IMG/VR virus record: IMGVR_UViG_2703718816_000002
Location: 1 to 18,683 of that record
Direction: 5' to 3' (one strand)
Length of the DNA: 18,683 bases
From: a virus
Taxonomy: Duplodnaviria > Heunggongvirae > Uroviricota > Caudoviricetes
The notes under the pieces are model-generated. The model saw only the letters and a program-made list of their open reading frames with translations, searched no databases and had not been told where the DNA came from. The position numbers and the translations under genes are program-made. Below are positions 1,979 through 11,656 of the stretch, one piece after another; position 1 is the stretch's first letter; every line of letters begins with the position of its first letter.

Positions 1979-2131
1979 TCATTTCCTGCGATACCACGGA
2001 AGGTTGATAGCTGATTTCATCGCTTTATTTGCTTCAAGCCACATTTTGGAATCACCAATAAATCGGGCTATTACTGCTTTGTTTTGTGCCGCACGAAGCA
2101 TCTGGTGATTGATGGCTATTTCATTGCGCAT
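1979..2131 (-). CDS. kil: Kil-like small protein (50 aa)
   Basis: Not in the ORF track (too short). Translates as MRNEIAINHQMLRAAQNKAVIARFIGDSKMWLEANKAMKSAINLPWYRRK. The segment VIARFIGDSKMW resembles lambda Kil (IATFIGDEKMF, recalled from memory). GGAGG 4 nt upstream of the ATG; overlaps the 3' end of the CIII-like ORF as kil does with cIII in lambda. Confidence 0.45.
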   Translation of the reverse strand: MRNEIAINHQMLRAAQNKAVIARFIGDSKMWLEANKAMKSAINLPWYRRK

Positions 2132-2250
2132 AACGCCTCCAGTTGTTTCTTTGCTGCTCTGATTAATTGTTTAACTCGTCGTGATAATTCAGATTCGTGC
2201 GGGTAGAAAGCGGACATGACGCCGCTACCCGCGAGCTGAAAGTGCATCAT
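2116..2250 (-). CDS. cIII: CIII-like small protein (putative FtsH inhibitor, 44 aa)
   Basis: The ORF track gives 2116..2325 (69 aa), but an internal ATG-ATG at 2250 has an AAGGAG 7 nt upstream. Product MMHFQLAGSGVMSAFYPHESELSRRVKQLIRAAKKQLEALCAMK. The core ESELSRRVKQL parallels the lambda CIII core ESLLERITRKL (recalled). Position just upstream of the kil-like ORF matches the lambda order. Confidence 0.5.
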   Translation of the reverse strand: MMHFQLAGSGVMSAFYPHESELSRRVKQLIRAAKKQLEALCAMK

Positions 2251-2325
2251 GGGTAACTCCTTATATTTGATTGCATAACGAAAACGCCTCGAGTGAAACA
2301 TTATTGGTATGCGGTAAAGCCGCAC

Positions 2326-2694
2326 TTAGTCGGCCTTGATAGTCATATCATCTGAATCAAATATTCCTGATGTATCGATATCGGTAATTCTTATTCCTTC
2401 GCTACCATCCATTGGAGGCCATCCTTCCTGACCATTTCCATCATTCCAGTCGAACTCACAAACAACACCATATGCATTTAGGTCTTTTGAAATTGCTATA
2501 AGCAGAGCATGTTGCGCCAGCATGATTAATACAGCATTTAATACAGCGCCGTGTTTATTGAGTCGGTATTCAGAGTCTGACCAGAAATTATTAATCTGGT
2601 GAAGTTTTTCCTCTGTCATTAGGTCATGGTCGATTTCAATTTCTATTGATGCTTTCCAGTCGTAATCAATGATGTATTTTTTGATGTTTGACAT
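2326..2694 (-). CDS. hypothetical phage protein (122 aa)
   Basis: ORF-track 2326..2694. ATG start with GAGGA 9 nt upstream; first gene after the terminator at 2713-2740. Acidic C-terminus. No family recognised with confidence. Confidence 0.5.
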   Translation of the reverse strand: MSNIKKYIIDYDWKASIEIEIDHDLMTEEKLHQINNFWSDSEYRLNKHGAVLNAVLIMLAQHALLIAISKDLNAYGVVCEFDWNDGNGQEGWPPMDGSEGIRITDIDTSGIFDSDDMTIKAD

Positions 2695-2712
2695 CTATTC
2701 ATATCCTCATAG

Positions 2713-2740
2713 ATAAAAAATCGCCCTCACATTGGAGGGC
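2713..2740 (-). terminator. Rho-independent terminator (tL1-like) in the pL operon
   Basis: On the minus strand: GCCCTC caatgt GAGGGC (perfect 6-bp stem, 6-nt loop) then GA TTTTTT. Lies between the 156-aa ORF and the 122-aa ORF, in the pL operon downstream of N. Confidence 0.6.
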
Positions 2741-2844
2741 AAAGAAGATTTCCAACAATCAGAACAAGTCGGCTCCTGTTTAGTTACGAGCGACATTGCT
2801 CCGTGTATTCACTCGTTGGAATGAATACACAGTGCTTATTCGTA

Positions 2845-3315
2845 CTAATAAAATACCCAGTTTTCTGTTTCTTGGTTGTGTCCAAAGTTATATTCAATAT
2901 CTGGTGTTGATGTATCAATATTCTTCATCCCATCAACAAGAGTTGATACAACAGCCAAATCTTGTTTGATTCTCATTAAATGGTATTTCTTCCGGCGCAA
3001 TAAACTTTCAATAGCAAGTTTCTTCGTTGGGAATGCAAAAGATCTTTCTGCATTTTTTGCTACTTTCTTAATTGCATATCTATTTCTCCTTTGTTTCCAT
3101 TCCTGTAACCACTGATTTGGTGCTGGTTTAAAATTAACAATCCAATGCGCAGGAACCAACCATGCATAATGCTCTGTCTGATGAAAAGCTATATATTGAA
3201 GTGCGAATATTTTTATCCCATCTTCTTCAACTGTCGCCTGGAATCTCCAGAAAACAGGCATTCCATCATGTTCAGTTTCTGATTCAGGAAAAGGTACGCT
3301 CCATGATTTTGTCAT
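2845..3315 (-). CDS. hypothetical AT-rich accessory gene immediately downstream of N (156 aa)
   Basis: ORF-track 2845..3315. ATG at 3315 with GAGGTG 4-5 nt upstream. Visibly more AT-rich than the flanking N and recombination genes. No family recognised. Confidence 0.55.
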   Translation of the reverse strand: MTKSWSVPFPESETEHDGMPVFWRFQATVEEDGIKIFALQYIAFHQTEHYAWLVPAHWIVNFKPAPNQWLQEWKQRRNRYAIKKVAKNAERSFAFPTKKLAIESLLRRKKYHLMRIKQDLAVVSTLVDGMKNIDTSTPDIEYNFGHNQETENWVFY

Positions 3316-3373
3316 ATCTCACCTCAAATAAGTGGTTTGCTGCCTAATTTCATTTTCTGGCGACCAACACAAG

Positions 3374-3757
3374 TCACCTCGCCGTCAGTTGTTTTGATTT
3401 CCGGTAGCCTGCCGCGTAAATGGCTACGTTTGGAAGACATACACCAGTTTCTGGTTGCTTATGTCCAAACTCATTCGCGTACACAATGGCCGCTCGCTCC
3501 AGATTGCGTCTGTATTCTTTCTGTTGCCAGATCACGTCCTGTGCCATGAACTTAATTGGCTTAGCGTCTTCTATGCGCTCAGGCGTTTCGTGAGTACCTT
3601 TAGCCTGAATCTGCGCTCTGCTTAGAGTAGGGCGGTGTAATACTTCTGAACTTATTGCTTCTTCGCGGGCCAGTACGCCGTTAGCTAATGCCTTTGCCTT
3701 TAAACGCTCACGACGACGAGAACGTGAATTGCCTTTGAACTGAGTTCTGCGTGTCAT
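3374..3757 (-). CDS. N: N-like transcription antiterminator (P22 gp24 / phage-21 type rather than lambda N)
   Basis: The ORF track extends to 3859, but the internal ATG at 3757 has AGGAGG 5 nt upstream and starts with the arginine-rich motif MTRRTQFKGNSRSRRRERLKAKA expected at an N protein N-terminus. C-terminus LPNVAIYAAGYRKSKQLTAR matches the P22 N-analogue C-terminus as I recall it. Sits just downstream of pL and a boxB element. Confidence 0.8.
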   Translation of the reverse strand: MTRRTQFKGNSRSRRRERLKAKALANGVLAREEAISSEVLHRPTLSRAQIQAKGTHETPERIEDAKPIKFMAQDVIWQQKEYRRNLERAAIVYANEFGHKQPETGVCLPNVAIYAAGYRKSKQLTAR

Positions 3758-3885
3758 ATAGACCTCCTGATGAACTTTGGTGGTGAATACAGCCGGGCGA
3801 CTAACTCCGGTCGCGTAATCATTGCAAAGCGCCTCCGCCGAGAAGGTTAGCTTCTGCATTCACCCCAAAGTTCACTTTGGTTATT

Positions 3886-3900
3886 GCGCTTTGTCAGCGC
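3886..3900 (-). promoter_or_regulatory. nutL boxB hairpin (P22-type GCGCUGACAAAGCGC)
   Basis: Minus-strand sequence GCGCTGACAAAGCGC: 4-bp GC stem with a 7-nt loop UGACAAA, in the pL leader upstream of N. The same loop is seen in the nutR-position element at 6743-6757. No convincing boxA (CGCTCTT-like) found near it. Confidence 0.7.
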
Positions 3901-3968
3901 CGTAGATTCATATTCGAATCGTTGTATATTCACCGCCCTGGTGAGTAGTGCGTCCTGCTGATGTGTTT

Positions 3969-4031
3969 AGTATCACCGCCAGTGGTATTTATGTCAACAC
4001 CGCTAGAGATAATTCATCACCGCAGATGGTT
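3969..4031 (-). promoter_or_regulatory. pL promoter with operators OL1, OL2, OL3
   Basis: OL1 TATCACCGCCAGTGGTA (3971-3987), OL2 CAACACCGCTAGAGATA (3995-4011), OL3 CATCACCGCAGATGGTT (4015-4031). On the minus strand, -35 TTGACA (3997-3992) and -10 GATACT (3974-3969) with a 17-bp spacer. Matches the lambda oL/pL arrangement as recalled. Confidence 0.85.
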
Positions 4032-4179
4032 ATCTGTATGTTTTTTATATGAATTTATTTTTTGAATTGGGGTATTGCTTTGGAGGGCGAGAGATCAGAA
4101 TTGCGATGTTTAGTGAGTTGTATCTATTTATTTTCAAATAAATACAATTGGTTATGTGTTTTTAGGTGGGCGAACGTGA

Positions 4180-4210
4180 GGCAAAGAAAACCCGGCGCTG
4201 AGGCCGGGTT
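4180..4210 (-). terminator. Rho-independent terminator closing the cI operon (tImm-like)
   Basis: On the minus strand: AACCCGGC ctcagc GCCGGGTT followed by TTCTTTG. Located 7 nt after the stop of the 206-aa ORF, between that ORF and oL. Confidence 0.65.
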
Positions 4211-4216
4211 AATGCG

Positions 4217-4837
4217 TTAATGCTGGGGAGTGATTTTTTTGTTGTCTGTTGGCTGGGTATTTTGTGGCGGCGCTTGCAAAGTGGAAGGCTGTTGCAAAGG
4301 TGCGTGGTCTGACTTTAAAGCTGATACCAGCCCGGGAATAGCAACTATTACAGCGATAATGACACTAAAAATGGCTAATCGTATAGAAATACCCGACTGA
4401 ACACCACTAATTGCGGTATTAACCCCTGTTATTTGTCCTTGAATTCCTTCGAATCTCCCATTAATTGCTTTTATATCGCCAGCAGCGCTATCCATCTTTC
4501 CATCGATCTTGGACGATAGAGAGCTTATGGCTGCATTAAGTGATGCAAATTGGACATTAACGCTTTCACGAGATAGAGCCATGTCAGCCCTAATGGAAGA
4601 AGCAATAGACTCCATCTCTGCTTTATTAGCAGCTAAGCGAGCATCAAGTTCCTCTCTGCTGATCGTTCCCACTTCTTCCTCCGTTTGTGGCGGTTTTATG
4701 TAATTATTTTGCACCTTGGTGGGAGAATTATCAAATTCAGCCTCAAAATCGGAACCGCCAACAACCTTCAACCTCCGGCTTTCAGATATGTTGGTGTCTT
4801 GCTTTCCATGATTATTTAAATTACTGTCGTCACTCAT
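4217..4837 (-). CDS. hypothetical coiled-coil protein with a single C-terminal transmembrane anchor (206 aa), in the rexB position
   Basis: ORF-track 4217..4837. ATG start overlaps the stop of the upstream 144-aa ORF (ATGA). Low-complexity N-terminus, central Ala/Ser-rich heptad-like segment, then a hydrophobic stretch IRLAIFSVIIAVIVAIPGLVSAL and a Pro/Gln-rich tail. Not RexB-like (RexB is polytopic). Confidence 0.6.
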   Translation of the reverse strand: MSDDSNLNNHGKQDTNISESRRLKVVGGSDFEAEFDNSPTKVQNNYIKPPQTEEEVGTISREELDARLAANKAEMESIASSIRADMALSRESVNVQFASLNAAISSLSSKIDGKMDSAAGDIKAINGRFEGIQGQITGVNTAISGVQSGISIRLAIFSVIIAVIVAIPGLVSALKSDHAPLQQPSTLQAPPQNTQPTDNKKITPQH

Positions 4838-5268
4838 AATAGCTCTACGGTGAAAAATGATTCATTTTTATGAAGTTCATTTTTAGGGTCTTCATTATCT
4901 TGCAATATCCCTATAACACTATATAGCCCTTTAGCTGGGACCCTAATTTCTTTCAATGTTACTATTACCTGTCCGCCAACCCCTGTTTCAAAATGGCTAT
5001 CTTTCGTATCGATGAAAAGTGAAACTGATTCCGAAGAGCCGTCAGGGAATTGAATTTCCTCACCTTTTTTTATAATTAGGTGCGCGGGGATTACCATAAT
5101 ACCCAAATTATATCTTGAATTTGGTTTCAACCCGATCATACCAACCCTGAAATCAATTGATAGCCGCGCAGGAAATTCATTGCATGTAAAATTAAGCGTC
5201 GGTTGGTTGGGTTCTTCGCTGCTATCAAATGGGGTTATAAAAGATATTCTTTCTAAATTAAGTGCCAT
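4834..5268 (-). CDS. hypothetical protein (144 aa), in the rexA position
   Basis: The ORF track gives 4834..5322, but the internal ATG at 5268 has AGGAG 6 nt upstream and yields MALNLERISFITPF... Predicted soluble and beta-rich. Translationally coupled to the 206-aa ORF. No family recognised. Confidence 0.55.
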   Translation of the reverse strand: MALNLERISFITPFDSSEEPNQPTLNFTCNEFPARLSIDFRVGMIGLKPNSRYNLGIMVIPAHLIIKKGEEIQFPDGSSESVSLFIDTKDSHFETGVGGQVIVTLKEIRVPAKGLYSVIGILQDNEDPKNELHKNESFFTVELL

Positions 5269-5318
5269 AAATTCTCCTGCATCGCTGTATGCTCTACGAG
5301 CATCTCTGCGACCATCCA

Positions 5319-5338
5319 TCATCCAAACGTCTCTTCAC
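5319..5338. repeat. second copy of the cI 3'-terminal sequence, downstream of the 113-aa gene
   Basis: TCATCCAAACGTCTCTTCA at 5319-5337 versus TCACCCAAACGTCTCTTCA at 5690-5708 (cI stop plus its last five codons): 18 of 19 identical. On the minus strand the second copy reads ATG AGT GAA GAG ACG TTT GGA TGA (MSEETFG-stop), mimicking the cI C-terminus PEETFG-stop. Confidence 0.85.
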
Positions 5339-5680
5339 TCATCCGAAGAAGCAGCAATCCGGGTCAGCACGCACAAGCTCAAGCGCATCAGTCAGCGAAA
5401 GTTCAGTACTGTACTGATGCCATTTCATATCCTTCCGCATCCAATAGATTTTCCATCTATCCAGAGAACGTATGTACTTGATTCTTGCTGATGGCAGGAT
5501 GTTTGTTTCACCTGGGTTGCCCTGCCACACGGGGCGCTGTTCGCCGATATCTATCGTTTGGTCATTGATGCTATAAACAATATCCAGTTCATTGCGGATA
5601 TGTTCAGGCGGCCTTATGCTTTCAATGAATTGGTGAACTTCTTTTTTGACCGCTTGATATTCAAGGTCAGTGAACGCCAT
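5339..5680 (-). CDS. hypothetical protein (113 aa) immediately downstream of cI
   Basis: ORF-track 5339..5680. ATG at 5680, 9 nt after the cI stop, with GAGGAGG 5 nt upstream, so it should be co-transcribed with cI from pRM. Ends CCFFG. Bracketed by the duplicated cI 3'-end sequence. No family recognised. Confidence 0.6.
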   Translation of the reverse strand: MAFTDLEYQAVKKEVHQFIESIRPPEHIRNELDIVYSINDQTIDIGEQRPVWQGNPGETNILPSARIKYIRSLDRWKIYWMRKDMKWHQYSTELSLTDALELVRADPDCCFFG

Positions 5681-5689
5681 CTATCCTCC

Positions 5690-6406
<717 letters not shown>

Positions 6407-7171: not shown

Positions 7172-8071
7172 ATGACAAATACAGCAAAAATACTCAACTT
7201 CGGCAGAGGTAACTTTGCCGAACAGGAGCGTAATGTGGCAGATCTCGATGATGGTTACGCCAGACTATCAAATATGCTGCTTGAGGCTTATTCAGGCGCA
7301 GATCTGACCAAGCGACAGTTTAAAGTGCTGCTTGCCATTCTGCGTAAAACCTATGGGTGGAATAAACCAATGGACAGAATCACCGATTCTCAACTTAGCG
7401 AGATTACAAAGTTACCCGTCAAACGGTGCAATGAAGCCAAGTTAGAACTCGTCAGAATGAATATTATCAAGCAGCAAGGCGGCATGTTTGGACCAAATAA
7501 AAACACCTCAGAATGGTGCATCCCTCAAAACGAGGGAAAATCCCCTAAAACGAGGGATAAAACATCCCTCAAATTAGGGGATTGCTATCCCTCAAAACAG
7601 GGGGACACAAAAGACACTATTACAAAAGAAAAAAGAAAAGATTATTCGTCCGAGAATTCTGGCGAATCCTCTGACCAGCCAGAAAACGATCTTTCTGTGG
7701 TTAAACCGGATGCTGCAATTCAGAGCGGCAGCAAGTGGGGAACAGCAGAAGACCTGACCGCCGCAGAGTGGATGTTTGACATGGTGAAGACCATCGCACC
7801 ATCAGCCAGAAAACCGAATTTTGCAGGGTGGGCTAACGATATCCGCCTGATGCGTGAACGTGACGGACGTAACCACCGCGACATGTGCGTGCTGTTCCGC
7901 TGGGCATGCCAGGACAACTTCTGGTCCGGTAACGTGCTAAGTCCGGCCAAACTCCGCGACAAGTGGACCCAACTCGAAATCAACCGTAACAAGCAACAGG
8001 CTGGCGTGACAGCTGGAAAACCAAAACTCGACCTGACAAACACTGACTGGATTTACGGGGTGGATTTATGA
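7172..8071 (+). CDS. O: replication initiator O, lambda type
   Basis: 299 aa, MTNTAKILNFGRGNFAEQERNVADLDDGYARLSNMLLEAYSGADLTKRQFKVLLAILRKTYGWNKPMDRITD... as in lambda O (recalled). Contains the iteron array internally. RBS CAGGAG. Confidence 0.95.
   Translation: MTNTAKILNFGRGNFAEQERNVADLDDGYARLSNMLLEAYSGADLTKRQFKVLLAILRKTYGWNKPMDRITDSQLSEITKLPVKRCNEAKLELVRMNIIKQQGGMFGPNKNTSEWCIPQNEGKSPKTRDKTSLKLGDCYPSKQGDTKDTITKEKRKDYSSENSGESSDQPENDLSVVKPDAAIQSGSKWGTAEDLTAAEWMFDMVKTIAPSARKPNFAGWANDIRLMRERDGRNHRDMCVLFRWACQDNFWSGNVLSPAKLRDKWTQLEINRNKQQAGVTAGKPKLDLTNTDWIYGVDL
7520..7645 (+). repeat. ori-lambda-type origin: four iterons plus AT-rich tract inside O
   Basis: Iterons TCCCTCAAAACGAGGGA (7521-7537), TCCCCTAAAACGAGGGA (7541-7557), TCCCTCAAATTAGGGGA (7565-7581), TCCCTCAAAACAGGGGGA (7588-7605), each internally palindromic, followed by an A-rich tract to about 7645. 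Confidence 0.85.
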
Positions 8072-10788: not shown

Positions 10789-10951
10789 ATATCGTTTGCA
10801 CAGTCACATTCGCGATTTATGGCGGGCTGTGTGGGGGAGCCGAAAGGCTCGCCGGTTTCCGTACCCGGTAGTGCTAACCCCGCACAGTTCGCCACCATGA
10901 TGATTAGCACCTGACGGTGGCGATAATGTCCAAATGTACGGAGTTATCGTT

Positions 10952-11656
10952 ATGGCCACTCAGATTTCTGTCGAAACTCTTTCCCCAATTACACACAACC
11001 AAATTCCCGTTATCACTACCGAGTTACTGGCACAGCTTTACTGTACCGAGATCAACAACATCAAAGTAAATTACACCCGTAATTCCGAGCGTTTTGTTGA
11101 GGGTAAACACTTTTTCAAGGTTGTTGGTGATGAGTTGAAAATTTTGCGGGTTACTTTAAGTAACTCACAAAATTTGCAACCATCTTTAAGAGGGTTACAA
11201 ATTTCCCCGAAAGCCCGCTCCCTCATCCTCTGGACAGAACGCGGAGCAGCCCGTCACGCCAAAATGCTCGAAACCGATCAGGCGTGGGAAGTGTTCGAAA
11301 AACTGGAAGACTGCTATTTTAGCCAGTGCGAGAAAAATACTGGCAAACAAGAGAAGAAGCTCAACGGGCTTTCCGCAAAAGAAACAGACAGCCTTGTATG
11401 GCTGTGGGATTATGCTAACCGCTCACAGGCATTATTCCGCGAATTGTATCCAGCGCTAAAGCAAATTCAATCGAACTATTCCGGCAGATGTTACGACTAC
11501 GGTCATGAGTTCTCGTATGTTATTGGAATGGCGAGAGACGTTTTAATCAATCACACACGAGATGTTGATATTAATGAGCCAGACGGACCAACGAATCTTT
11601 CCGCATGGGTAAGGCTTAAGAACAAAGAATTACCTCCTTCACTACATCGCTACTGA
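10952..11656 (+). CDS. ORF6N-domain phage protein (antirepressor-like)
   Basis: The ORF track starts at 10934; the second in-frame ATG at 10952 has GGAG 8 nt upstream. The N-terminal half ([46 protein letters not shown]...[32 protein letters not shown]) has the pattern I associate with the ORF6N / KilA-N-like domain. Assignment by recollection. Confidence 0.55.

What the first reader, a model, noticed from the sequence alone, without database searches (positions are those of the whole stretch)
2741..3315. AT-rich 156-aa gene inserted between N and the first leftward terminator, with a 9-bp inverted repeat after it
The gene (2845-3315) sits between N and the tL1-like terminator, has a strong RBS, is visibly AT-rich relative to its neighbours and matches nothing I recognise. 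A 9-bp inverted repeat (GTGTATTCA, 10-nt spacer, TGAATACAC at 2803-2830) lies between it and the terminator. An early-expressed accessory gene of this kind is a candidate anti-defence or host-takeover function.
Basis: partly seen in the sequence, partly recalled or inferred. Interest (0 to 1): 0.5.

Follow-up and report, generated by a model that had tools for sequence, protein, structure and literature searches.

The report
Uncharacterised early phage gene beside PreS sRNA
The 156-aa gene is real but already catalogued (phage HK97 gp45 = 933W L0079) and has no known function, while the "inverted repeat plus terminator" after it belong to the known lambda small RNA PreS, not to the gene.

Summary
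ORF 2845-3315(-) is real, AT-rich (35.9% GC, against 49.2% for N) and has a perfect Shine-Dalgarno.

The gene is not new. It is 99-100% identical to 933W L0079 and HK97 gp45 (PHROG 1636, "unknown function"). It occurs in 598 of 5426 complete E. coli genomes and is under purifying selection.

The protein is basic (pI 9.1), and no catalytic residues are conserved across the family. It is one of at least 14 interchangeable cassettes at the site where lambda carries sieB and ral.

The terminator is the homologue of lambda tL2a, not tL1. It is the 3' end of the Hfq-dependent sRNA PreS/LPR1, which is 85/87 nt identical to lambda. The repeat is the core of a 14-bp RNA stem that abuts the PreS 5' end. 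An unrelated hairpin sequence replaces it at the same spot in other prophages, so it is probably a processing stem.

An anti-defence or host-takeover role for the protein is plausible but untested.

The parts
3969..3997 (-). pL promoter (TTGACA, 17 nt, GATACT) with lambda/HK97-type oL operators. It is the inferred source of the transcript that carries N, the 156-aa gene and PreS.
   Evidence: Promoter scan. Alignment with lambda and HK97.
3374..3757 (-). Antiterminator N of the 933W/HK97 type, 127 aa. The mechanical ORF extends to 3859.
   Evidence: Pfam N_peptide and phrog_271. 100% identical to 933W N and 98% to HK97 N.
3316..3373 (-). N-to-gene spacer. It is an out-of-frame remnant of the 3' end of a lambda/21-type N gene. 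It contains the Shine-Dalgarno GAGGTGA at 3319-3325.
   Evidence: Upstream-flank comparison across loci. Sequence.
2845..3315 (-). 156-aa CDS = 933W L0079 = HK97 gp45 (PHROG 1636). It is a basic early accessory protein of unknown function.
2834..2842 (-). Conserved linker CGAAUAAGC, starting 2 nt after the stop codon. It pairs with the PreS 5' region (GC ... UCG) to form the lower part of the irregular helix.
   Evidence: Flank variants. Folds.
2798..2835 (-). Stem-loop. The 14-bp stem pairs 2819-2832 with 2801-2814. The loop is CAAC (2815-2818). There is an A bulge and a 2-bp GC clamp. Proposed role: RNA processing or stabilising stem at the PreS 5' boundary.
2715..2801 (-). Homologue of lambda sRNA PreS (LPR1), 87 nt and 85/87 identical to lambda. 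The differences are A46G (window 2756, in the seed) and G70A (window 2732, in the terminator loop).
   Evidence: Alignment. Paper 10.1101/2024.10.31.621285 and its cloning primer P810. Duplex with the dnaN leader.
2715..2742 (-). Intrinsic terminator, the homologue of lambda tL2a. Stem 2721-2742, U-run 2715-2720. It is also the Hfq-binding 3' end of PreS.
   Evidence: HK97 annotates a putative terminator at the same place.
2326..2694 (-). ea10 (DUF2528), the next gene downstream. It is shared with lambda at 97.5% amino-acid identity.

Best explanation
**Shown**
- The finding covers two separate modules that lie next to each other in the pL (early-left) operon of an HK97/933W-like lambdoid prophage.
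- Module 1 (2843-3330) is a mosaic, AT-rich cassette encoding the 156-aa protein known as HK97 gp45 or 933W L0079. It has a perfect ribosome binding site, no promoter of its own and no intrinsic terminator between it and pL.
- Module 2 (2715-2842) is the lambda PreS unit. It comprises a conserved linker and stem-loop, the 87-nt Hfq-dependent sRNA PreS, and its terminator tL2a.
- The cassette occupies the slot where lambda has sieB, tL1, orf28 and ral. It is one of at least 14 alternative cassettes that all end just 5' of the PreS stem-loop.

**Inferred**
- The protein is made together with N in the first minutes after infection or induction, independently of N antitermination.
- It acts as a non-enzymatic binder. 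The predicted structure is a small SH3/Tudor-like beta-barrel plus a long basic helix, with net charge +12 over residues 57-130. No catalytic-type residues are conserved across the wider family.
- I think the most likely job is a dispensable counter-defence or host-takeover function, exerted by binding a nucleic acid or an acidic host factor. This is analogous in position and timing to Ral. I put about 0.3 on anti-defence and about 0.45 on anti-defence or takeover combined.
- The stem-loop is an RNA element of the leftward transcript. Cleavage at its 3' base, where the mapped PreS 5' end lies inside the helix, points to a double-strand-specific nuclease such as RNase III. That cut would release PreS and leave the hairpin as the 3' end of the gp45 mRNA.
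For: **Identity and reality of the gene**
- It is 100% identical to 933W L0079 and 99.4% to HK97 gp45.
- It matches phrog_1636 over its full length, E = 2.7e-112.
- It is present in 598 of 5426 complete E. coli genomes.
- Among 36 nucleotide haplotypes there are 22 synonymous and 9 non-synonymous variants.
- The AlphaFold model built on the 69-sequence alignment has pLDDT 95.5 and pTM 0.82.

**Early expression**
- pL was found at 3969-3997, and the only strong terminator downstream of it is at 2742-2715.
- In a 71%-identical relative the gene again follows a different N directly.
- In distant relatives it is the first or second gene after a divergent promoter region.

**Cassette nature**
- It was never found with ral or sieB in 89 loci.
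- 14 cassette types lie upstream of the PreS hairpin.

**Binder rather than enzyme**
- pI is 9.1 and the family median is 8.9.
- The conserved positions are mostly basic: R24, K83, K84, K87, K109.
- Only G33, T47, K87 and A101 are near-invariant.

**PreS unit**
- Near-identity with the lambda ral-ea10 spacer begins exactly at the hairpin.
- The paper places LPR1/PreS between ral and ea10, ending at tL2a. Primer P810 starts at GAGCAATGTCGC, which is window 2801.
- The predicted duplex with the dnaN leader is -33.0 kcal/mol, against -33.3 for lambda.

**Hairpin as an RNA structure**
- It has two G-U pairs that would be A-C mismatches on the other strand, and the plus-strand fold is weaker.
- In 191 PreS loci only two hairpin types occur, with unrelated sequences at the same place. 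Variation sits in the loop, the bulge and the G-U positions.
Against: - No experiment or paper addresses gp45/L0079.
- There is no homology to any known anti-defence, defence, regulatory or nucleic-acid-binding family.
- All other cassettes at the hotspot except ral are also of unknown function, so guilt by position is weak.
- The gene is not in plasmid leading regions.
- Rho-dependent termination between N and the gene cannot be excluded.
- The PreS preprint says nothing about how the 5' end arises, and its 5' end may be approximate.
- The helix (14 + 2 bp plus a 3-bp outer stem) is short for a classical RNase III substrate.
- Type A hairpin copies are almost invariant, so there is no formal covariation statistic.
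Confidence: 0.55

Rival explanations
1. gp45/L0079 is a phage-internal regulator. It would be a DNA- or RNA-binding protein that tunes early transcription, the pL transcript or the lysis-lysogeny decision, rather than acting on host defences.
For: - The protein is basic, with conserved Lys/Arg positions.
- It is directly linked to N of three different types.
- In distant phages it is the first or second gene next to a divergent early promoter region, a place typical of regulators.
Against: - No HTH, RHH or other known DNA-binding signature was found.
- Lambda and many lambdoid phages lack the gene and carry ral or other cassettes instead, so it is dispensable for the core circuit.
- In Pectobacterium and Brenneria prophages it sits next to xis-int, far from the immunity region.
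Confidence: 0.2
2. gp45/L0079 is a prophage-borne defence or superinfection-exclusion gene that protects the lysogen, like the sieB gene whose slot it occupies.
For: - It has the same genomic slot as lambda sieB.
- It has AT-rich, moron-like composition.
- It is very common in E. coli prophages, with up to 4 copies per genome.
Against: - No promoter-like site lies upstream of it. It is on the pL strand and should be repressed in a lysogen.
- There is no significant PADLOC hit; the only match is Cas1_II at E = 0.018.
- AlphaFold predicts a soluble protein, with no membrane segments such as SieB has.
- Structural relatives also occur in phages such as Erwinia phiEa2809, Achromobacter phiAxp-3 and Delftia RG-2014. 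From my own knowledge these are virulent, and a virulent phage has no lysogen to protect.
Confidence: 0.1
3. The inverted repeat is a DNA-level feature, such as a protein-binding palindrome or a recombination joint for cassette exchange, or simply a chance repeat. It would not be an RNA structure.
For: - Mosaic joints fall exactly at its 5' edge in many phages.
- A perfect 9-bp repeat with a short spacer is expected about 0.7 times per window by chance.
Against: - The stem extends to 14 bp only on the leftward RNA, through two G-U pairs.
- A second, unrelated sequence forms a hairpin at the same position in other prophages.
- Substitutions fall in the loop or bulge, or convert U-G to U-A or C-G.
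- It abuts the mapped PreS 5' end.
Confidence: 0.08
4. The hairpin acts only on the upstream message, either as a 3' stabiliser or as a sib-like negative retroregulator of the gp45/ral mRNA. On this reading it plays no part in making PreS, whose 5' end would come from RNase E or another single-strand cut next to the stem.
For: - The hairpin begins within 12 nt of the stop codon of every upstream cassette.
- From general knowledge, stable 3' hairpins protect against 3' exonucleases.
- A shorter, roughly 68-nt PreS form shows that further single-strand cleavages do occur.
Against: - The hairpin travels with PreS and not with any particular upstream gene.
- The cloned 5' end lies at the closing pair of the stem.
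- The flanks on both sides pair with each other and continue the helix into PreS.
Confidence: 0.25

Closest known systems
HK97 gp45 / 933W L0079 (PHROG 1636; relatives in PHROGs 13631 and 25384)
   Same: The protein is 99.4-100% identical, sits in the same position after N, and has the same downstream hairpin, PreS and terminator.
   Different: Nothing differs at the sequence level. The family has no assigned function, no Pfam model and no solved structure.
Lambda sRNA PreS (LPR1) with terminator tL2a (bioRxiv 10.1101/2024.10.31.621285)
   Same: 85 of 87 nt are identical. It lies in the same place directly upstream of ea10, with the same GC-rich stem and U-tail. Complementarity to the dnaN leader is retained.
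   Different: There is an A46G change in the seed, which gives G-U instead of A-U with dnaN, and a G70A change in the terminator loop. The upstream neighbour is gp45/L0079 instead of ral. The stem-loop 5' of PreS is not discussed in the paper.
Lambda Ral (restriction alleviation) and SieB (exclusion)
   Same: They occupy the same slot between N and the PreS/ea10 block. They never co-occur with the 156-aa gene in 89 loci. Ral is likewise a small pL-expressed accessory protein.
   Different: There is no sequence similarity. Ral is 66 aa and lies after tL1, so it is a delayed-early gene. SieB is on the opposite strand in the lambda record and, from my own knowledge, is a membrane protein. The 156-aa protein lies before the first intrinsic terminator.
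RNase III processing hairpins of phage early transcripts (T7 R1.1-type sites; lambda N-leader and sib sites), cited from established knowledge
   Same: It is an irregular helix with an internal loop or bulge in a polycistronic early transcript. The putative cut is on the 3' side, so the hairpin would remain at the 3' end of the upstream message.
   Different: Cleavage has not been shown. The helix is shorter than classical substrates. No sequence similarity was tested.
Small SH3-like beta-barrels with C-terminal helices (PipX, UvrD/PcrA Tudor domains, KOW, PWWP)
   Different: All scores are below the usual significance threshold. Foldseek against PDB finds nothing. This is a lead on the shape of the fold, not a family assignment.

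Membership tests
HK97 gp45 / 933W L0079 family (PHROG 1636) | Full-length match to the family profile and near-identity to the named members. | tested here: met
   phrog_1636 E = 2.7e-112 over residues 1-156 of 156. 100% identical to 933W L0079 and 99.4% to HK97 gp45.
Lambda PreS (LPR1) sRNA | [quoted passage not shown] | tested here: met
   85 of 87 nt identical with no gaps. Criterion taken.
Lambda PreS (LPR1) sRNA | Location in the early-left operon just upstream of ea10, ending at a GC-rich stem plus poly-U (tL2a). | tested here: met
   Terminator at 2742-2715 lies 20 nt before the ea10 start.
Lambda PreS (LPR1) sRNA | Seed complementary to the dnaN leader. | tested here: met
   The predicted duplex lies at -48 to -19 relative to the dnaN AUG. 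It is -33.0 kcal/mol for the window and -33.3 for lambda. A46G gives a G-U pair.
Lambda PreS (LPR1) sRNA | Hfq binding and expression in the lytic cycle only. | not testable with these tools
   This needs northern blots or RIL-seq in a lysogen of this prophage.
   The terminator and its flanks align with the lambda ral-ea10 spacer (about 97% identical over the shared part, by my count). The paper names that spacer's terminator tL2a. The lambda N-ral interval that holds tL1 is absent here, with no sieB or ral hit.
Ral restriction-alleviation proteins | Sequence similarity to lambda Ral. | tested here: not met
   tblastn with lambda Ral finds nothing in the window or in 89 L0079 loci.
SieB superinfection exclusion | Sequence similarity to SieB, opposite-strand orientation and own expression in the lysogen. 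| tested here: not met
   There is no SieB hit. The gene is on the pL strand with no promoter-like site upstream.
Acidic DNA-mimic anti-restriction proteins (Ocr/ArdA type) | Strongly negative net charge that mimics DNA. | tested here: not met
   pI 9.1 and net charge +3. The central segment has net charge +12.
Known anti-phage defence systems (PADLOC-DB 2.0) | Significant match to a defence protein model. | tested here: not met
   The only match is Cas1_II at E = 0.018 and 12 bits, which is chance level.
RNase III processing site | An extended, irregular double-stranded helix with in vivo cleavage that depends on rnc. | tested here: inconclusive
   A helix of 14 + 2 bp plus an outer stem is predicted, and an alternative sequence keeps the fold. 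The cloned PreS 5' end lies at the closing pair of the 14-bp stem. Cleavage itself is not testable here.

The most novel reading that the evidence does not exclude
The gp45/L0079 family is found from E. coli Stx phages to Vibrio, Rhizobium, Tenacibaculum and Cellulophaga phages. It could be a new fold class of immediate-early effector that binds a conserved host target or nucleic acid to disarm a defence or take over the cell. In lambdoid phages its mRNA could be physically coupled to biogenesis of the PreS sRNA through a shared RNase III-type hairpin. One cleavage would then set both gp45 message stability and PreS release.
Probability: 0.2. Interest if true: 0.6.

Novelty: already known. Interest (0 to 1): 0.3.

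Why it matters
- **Reach.** The gene is carried by the Shiga-toxin phage 933W, by the model phage HK97 and by about 11% of complete E. coli genomes. It is probably among the first proteins made on induction, yet nobody has assigned it a function.
- **Tractability.** A confident structure prediction with no solved relative, plus a broad phage-only distribution, makes it a reasonable target for anti-defence or host-takeover screens.
- **Limits.** It is one of many such orphan cassettes.
- **Main practical result.** The annotation needs correcting. The "hairpin plus terminator" is the PreS sRNA locus, so Stx and HK97-type prophages carry a near-identical copy of this host-replication-boosting sRNA.
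- **A testable lead.** The conserved stem at the PreS 5' end gives a concrete hypothesis for how PreS is cut out of the pL transcript. The PreS preprint read here does not address this.

Tried and rejected
- **Family searches.** Pfam, NCBIfam and PADLOC scans of the protein gave nothing significant. Pfam on all 69 family members, even at E up to 10, gave no recurrent family.
- **PDB by sequence.** Searching PDB sequences with the protein and with the profile gave only chance-level hits.
- **First structure model.** The first AlphaFold run used a shallow 20-sequence alignment. It gave pLDDT 59.5 and was discarded.
- **Rfam.** A scan of 2000-4400 found no family, so PreS is not in Rfam 15.
- **Plasmids.** I tested the idea that the gene sits in plasmid leading regions. 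There were only 11 records, all non-mobilizable and all at least 98.7% identical to the query, so I read them as prophage copies.
- **Locus search.** The search for related loci with the wide alignment failed because no stretch was conserved enough.
- **Literature.** Searches for L0079, HK97 gp45, accession numbers and phrog_1636 found nothing relevant. Tree et al. 2014 on EHEC sRNAs does not cover this locus. I looked for expression data in an EDL933 ciprofloxacin study, but my guessed locus tags were not found.
- **K-12 check.** I asked whether the K-12 Rac prophage carries PreS, so that published RNase III maps could be used. Rac has an unrelated sRNA, KilS, instead.
- **Neighbouring cassettes.** PHROG scans of 10 of the alternative cassettes at the hotspot all returned unknown function, so guilt by position adds little.

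Full report
**What is there.**

The window is the early-left and immunity region of a lambdoid prophage.
- cI (5690-6403) is 100% identical to HK97 cI and 99% to lambda cI.
- pL and oL at 3969-3997 are of the lambda/HK97 type.
- N (3374-3757) is of the 933W/HK97 type.

- It has a 7-nt perfect Shine-Dalgarno, GAGGTGA, 3 nt before the ATG.
- It is 35.9% GC, against 49.2% for N and 46.5% for the window.

A strong intrinsic terminator follows at 2742-2715.

**The gene is real, and already catalogued.**

The same DNA is 99.3% identical in 933W, Min27, phi24B and many other Stx phages. In 933W the ORF is annotated L0079, "hypothetical protein". In HK97 it is gp45, 99.4% identical.
- It matches PHROG 1636 ("unknown function") end to end.
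- It is present in 598 of 5426 complete E. coli genomes, with up to four copies per genome. The five records listed all annotate it as hypothetical.
- Among 97 copies there are 36 nucleotide haplotypes, carrying 22 synonymous and only 9 non-synonymous variants. That indicates purifying selection.
- Full-length relatives at 55-85% identity, where a source names an organism, all come from Enterobacterales. These are Pectobacterium, Brenneria, Cronobacter, Rosenbergiella and Symbiopectobacterium.
- An exhaustive profile search adds about 70 distant proteins of 130-150 aa. The same sequence logic runs through the combined alignment.

**What the protein looks like.**

No Pfam, NCBIfam, PADLOC or PDB-sequence match exists for it or for the family.

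With the deep alignment AlphaFold gives a confident model, pLDDT 95.5 and pTM 0.82.
- Long beta strands at 19-30, 33-46 and 50-55.
- Two short helices.
- A strand at 83-86.
- A 33-residue helix at 98-130.
- An ordered C-terminal tail.

Structure searches gave the following.
- Foldseek against PDB finds nothing.
- Foldseek against predicted viral structures finds 12 matches at E of 1e-3 or better. Those that carry a name are uncharacterised. They come from very different phages: Erwinia phiEa2809, Tenacibaculum, Achromobacter phiAxp-3, Rhizobium, Sinorhizobium and Delftia. A Cellulophaga phage follows just above that cut, at E = 1.5e-3.

Sequence properties:
- pI is 9.1 and the family median is 8.9.
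- Net charge is +12 between residues 57 and 130, with acidic termini.
- Positions conserved across the family are mostly Lys/Arg.
- Only G33, T47, K87 and A101 are nearly invariant.

That pattern argues for a binding protein rather than an enzyme. It also rules out an Ocr/ArdA-type DNA mimic.

**Genomic logic.**

In 89 E. coli prophage loci the gene always lies after N and before the PreS, ea10 or cIII genes. N there is either of the 933W type or detected with lambda N as query. The gene never occurs with ral or sieB.

Other contexts:
- A 71%-identical relative again follows a different, 76-aa N with a 2-nt gap.
- In Pectobacterium and Brenneria prophages the homologue is the last gene before xis-int.
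- In a Marinobacterium prophage it lies among small early-left genes.
- In three other elements it is the first or second gene beside a divergent early promoter region.
- One is a solitary opposite-strand gene.

There is no conserved partner gene. I found no promoter-like site upstream of it and no convincing intrinsic terminator between pL and it. I therefore infer that it is transcribed with N as an immediate-early product. Rho-dependent termination cannot be assessed.

**The repeat and the terminator belong to PreS.**

Aligning the region downstream of the stop codon with lambda shows near-identity that begins exactly at the hairpin. It runs through the terminator into ea10. In lambda this is the ral-ea10 spacer.

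A 2024 preprint (10.1101/2024.10.31.621285) shows that this spacer encodes LPR1/PreS.
- PreS is an Hfq-dependent sRNA of about 88 nt, with a processed form of about 68 nt.
- Its 3' end is the terminator tL2a.
- It is made only in the lytic cycle.
- It activates dnaN translation and represses alaS.

The authors' cloning primer starts at GAGCAATGTCGC. That is window position 2801, so the PreS homologue spans 2801-2715.
- It differs from lambda at two positions: A46G in the seed and G70A in the terminator loop.
- The predicted duplex with the dnaN leader is essentially unchanged, -33.0 against -33.3 kcal/mol.

So the "tL1-like" terminator is tL2a. From my own memory of the lambda map, tL1 lies in the N-ral interval. 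That interval is the part replaced here.

**The hairpin.**

On the leftward RNA the repeat extends to a 14-bp stem with two G-U pairs, a CAAC loop, an A bulge and a GC clamp. The flanks (CGAAUAAGC upstream and GC..UCG inside PreS) continue the helix. The opposite-strand RNA folds less well. The cloned PreS 5' end is the last nucleotide of the 14-bp stem.

Across 191 PreS-containing loci the upstream gene varies, but only two hairpin types occur.
- One is the type seen here.
- The other is an unrelated sequence, CCUAUAGCAGAUUUACGAGUCUGCUAUGUG, that forms an 11-bp stem-loop at the same position.

Rare variants of the first type fall as follows.
- Some fall in the loop or the bulge.
- Some change U-G to U-A or to C-G.
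- Three changes weaken a pair, in five loci.

A perfect 9-bp repeat by itself would not be beyond chance (3 observed against 0.7 expected). Position, strand asymmetry and replacement by a different hairpin together show that this is a functional RNA structure belonging to the PreS unit.

My inference is that it is a processing stem.
- Cleavage at its 3' base would create the PreS 5' end.
- That would leave a hairpin at the 3' end of the upstream message, as at T7 early RNase III sites.
- A sib-like destabilising effect is the alternative outcome.

The preprint does not mention RNase III or RNase E. This is a hypothesis, not a result.

**A cassette hotspot.**

Taking the ORF that ends just upstream of the hairpin in 87 non-redundant contexts gives at least 14 unrelated cassettes.
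- gp45/L0079: 25 contexts.
- ral: 18 contexts.
- Twelve others. The ten that I scanned all fall in unknown-function PHROGs.

The 58-nt spacer between N and the gene is an out-of-frame remnant of the 3' end of a lambda/21-type N gene. The cassette has evidently moved between N types. Because only Ral has a known role, position gives only weak support for an anti-defence function.

**Verdict.**

The anatomy is settled with high confidence. It consists of a catalogued orphan early gene, followed by the PreS processing stem, the PreS sRNA and tL2a.

The function of the protein is not known.
- My best guess is a non-enzymatic binder made with N that serves counter-defence or host takeover. I put about 0.3 on anti-defence.
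- A phage-internal regulator is the main rival, at about 0.2.
- A lysogen-protecting exclusion function is unlikely, at about 0.1.

The finding is ordinary in kind, since lambdoid early-left operons are full of such cassettes, and it is already in the databases. I therefore score interest at 0.3.

Two things are of some value. One is the corrected reading of the RNA elements. The other is the testable idea that one hairpin couples upstream mRNA fate to PreS release.

Noticed in passing
window 4189-5680 (minus strand): Three genes sit between cI and pL/oL, at the position of lambda rexA and rexB. (1) 113 aa at 5339-5680: DUF3024, PADLOC candidate PDC-S43 at E = 7e-42, and 98% identical to 933W L0084. 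(2) 162 aa at 4834-5322: phrog_5893. (3) 206 aa at 4217-4837: phrog_5820. A terminator follows at 4210-4189. The trio occurs in only 6 of the roughly 215 fetched loci. It is a candidate defence module expressed in the lysogen.
   Followed up: partly
window 3316-3373: The spacer between N and the 156-aa gene is identical to the last 54 nt of a lambda/21-type N gene (..VTCVGRQKMKLGSKPLI*), read out of frame. A mosaic joint therefore lies inside N, and the cassette was once linked to another N type.
   Followed up: partly
window 2756 (PreS nt 46): The PreS seed carries A-to-G, a rare variant seen in only 2 of 78 loci. It turns an A-U pair with the dnaN leader into G-U, with almost no predicted energy cost (-33.0 against -33.3 kcal/mol).
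   Followed up: yes
loci L099, L023, L136, L151, L198, L205 (upstream of PreS): An alternative, unrelated hairpin (CCUAUAGCAGAUUUACGAGUCUGCUAUGUG) replaces the window's stem-loop at exactly the same place before the PreS 5' end. It comes with a longer outer helix formed with the PreS 5' region.
   Followed up: yes
87 non-redundant PreS loci (for example L121, L151, L131, L123, L040, L163): The site just 5' of the PreS hairpin is a cassette hotspot with at least 14 unrelated genes. Apart from ral, every cassette I scanned is of unknown function. They include a 149-aa hydrophobic protein (phrog_3054) and a 293-aa protein whose C-terminal end shows a weak Nun-like match.
   Followed up: partly
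L218 8406-8503 (E. coli K-12 Rac prophage): Rac carries a different annotated sRNA, KilS, at the analogous place between sieB and kilR. It is not homologous to PreS. Early-left operons of different lambdoid prophages may each carry their own sRNA here.
   Followed up: partly
window 7539-7583 and 11134-11180: Two long inverted repeats. The first has 20-nt arms and lies inside the O-like gene (7172-8071), so it is probably the ori iterons. The second has 23-nt arms 1 nt apart and lies inside ORF 10934-11656; I have no explanation for it.
   Followed up: no
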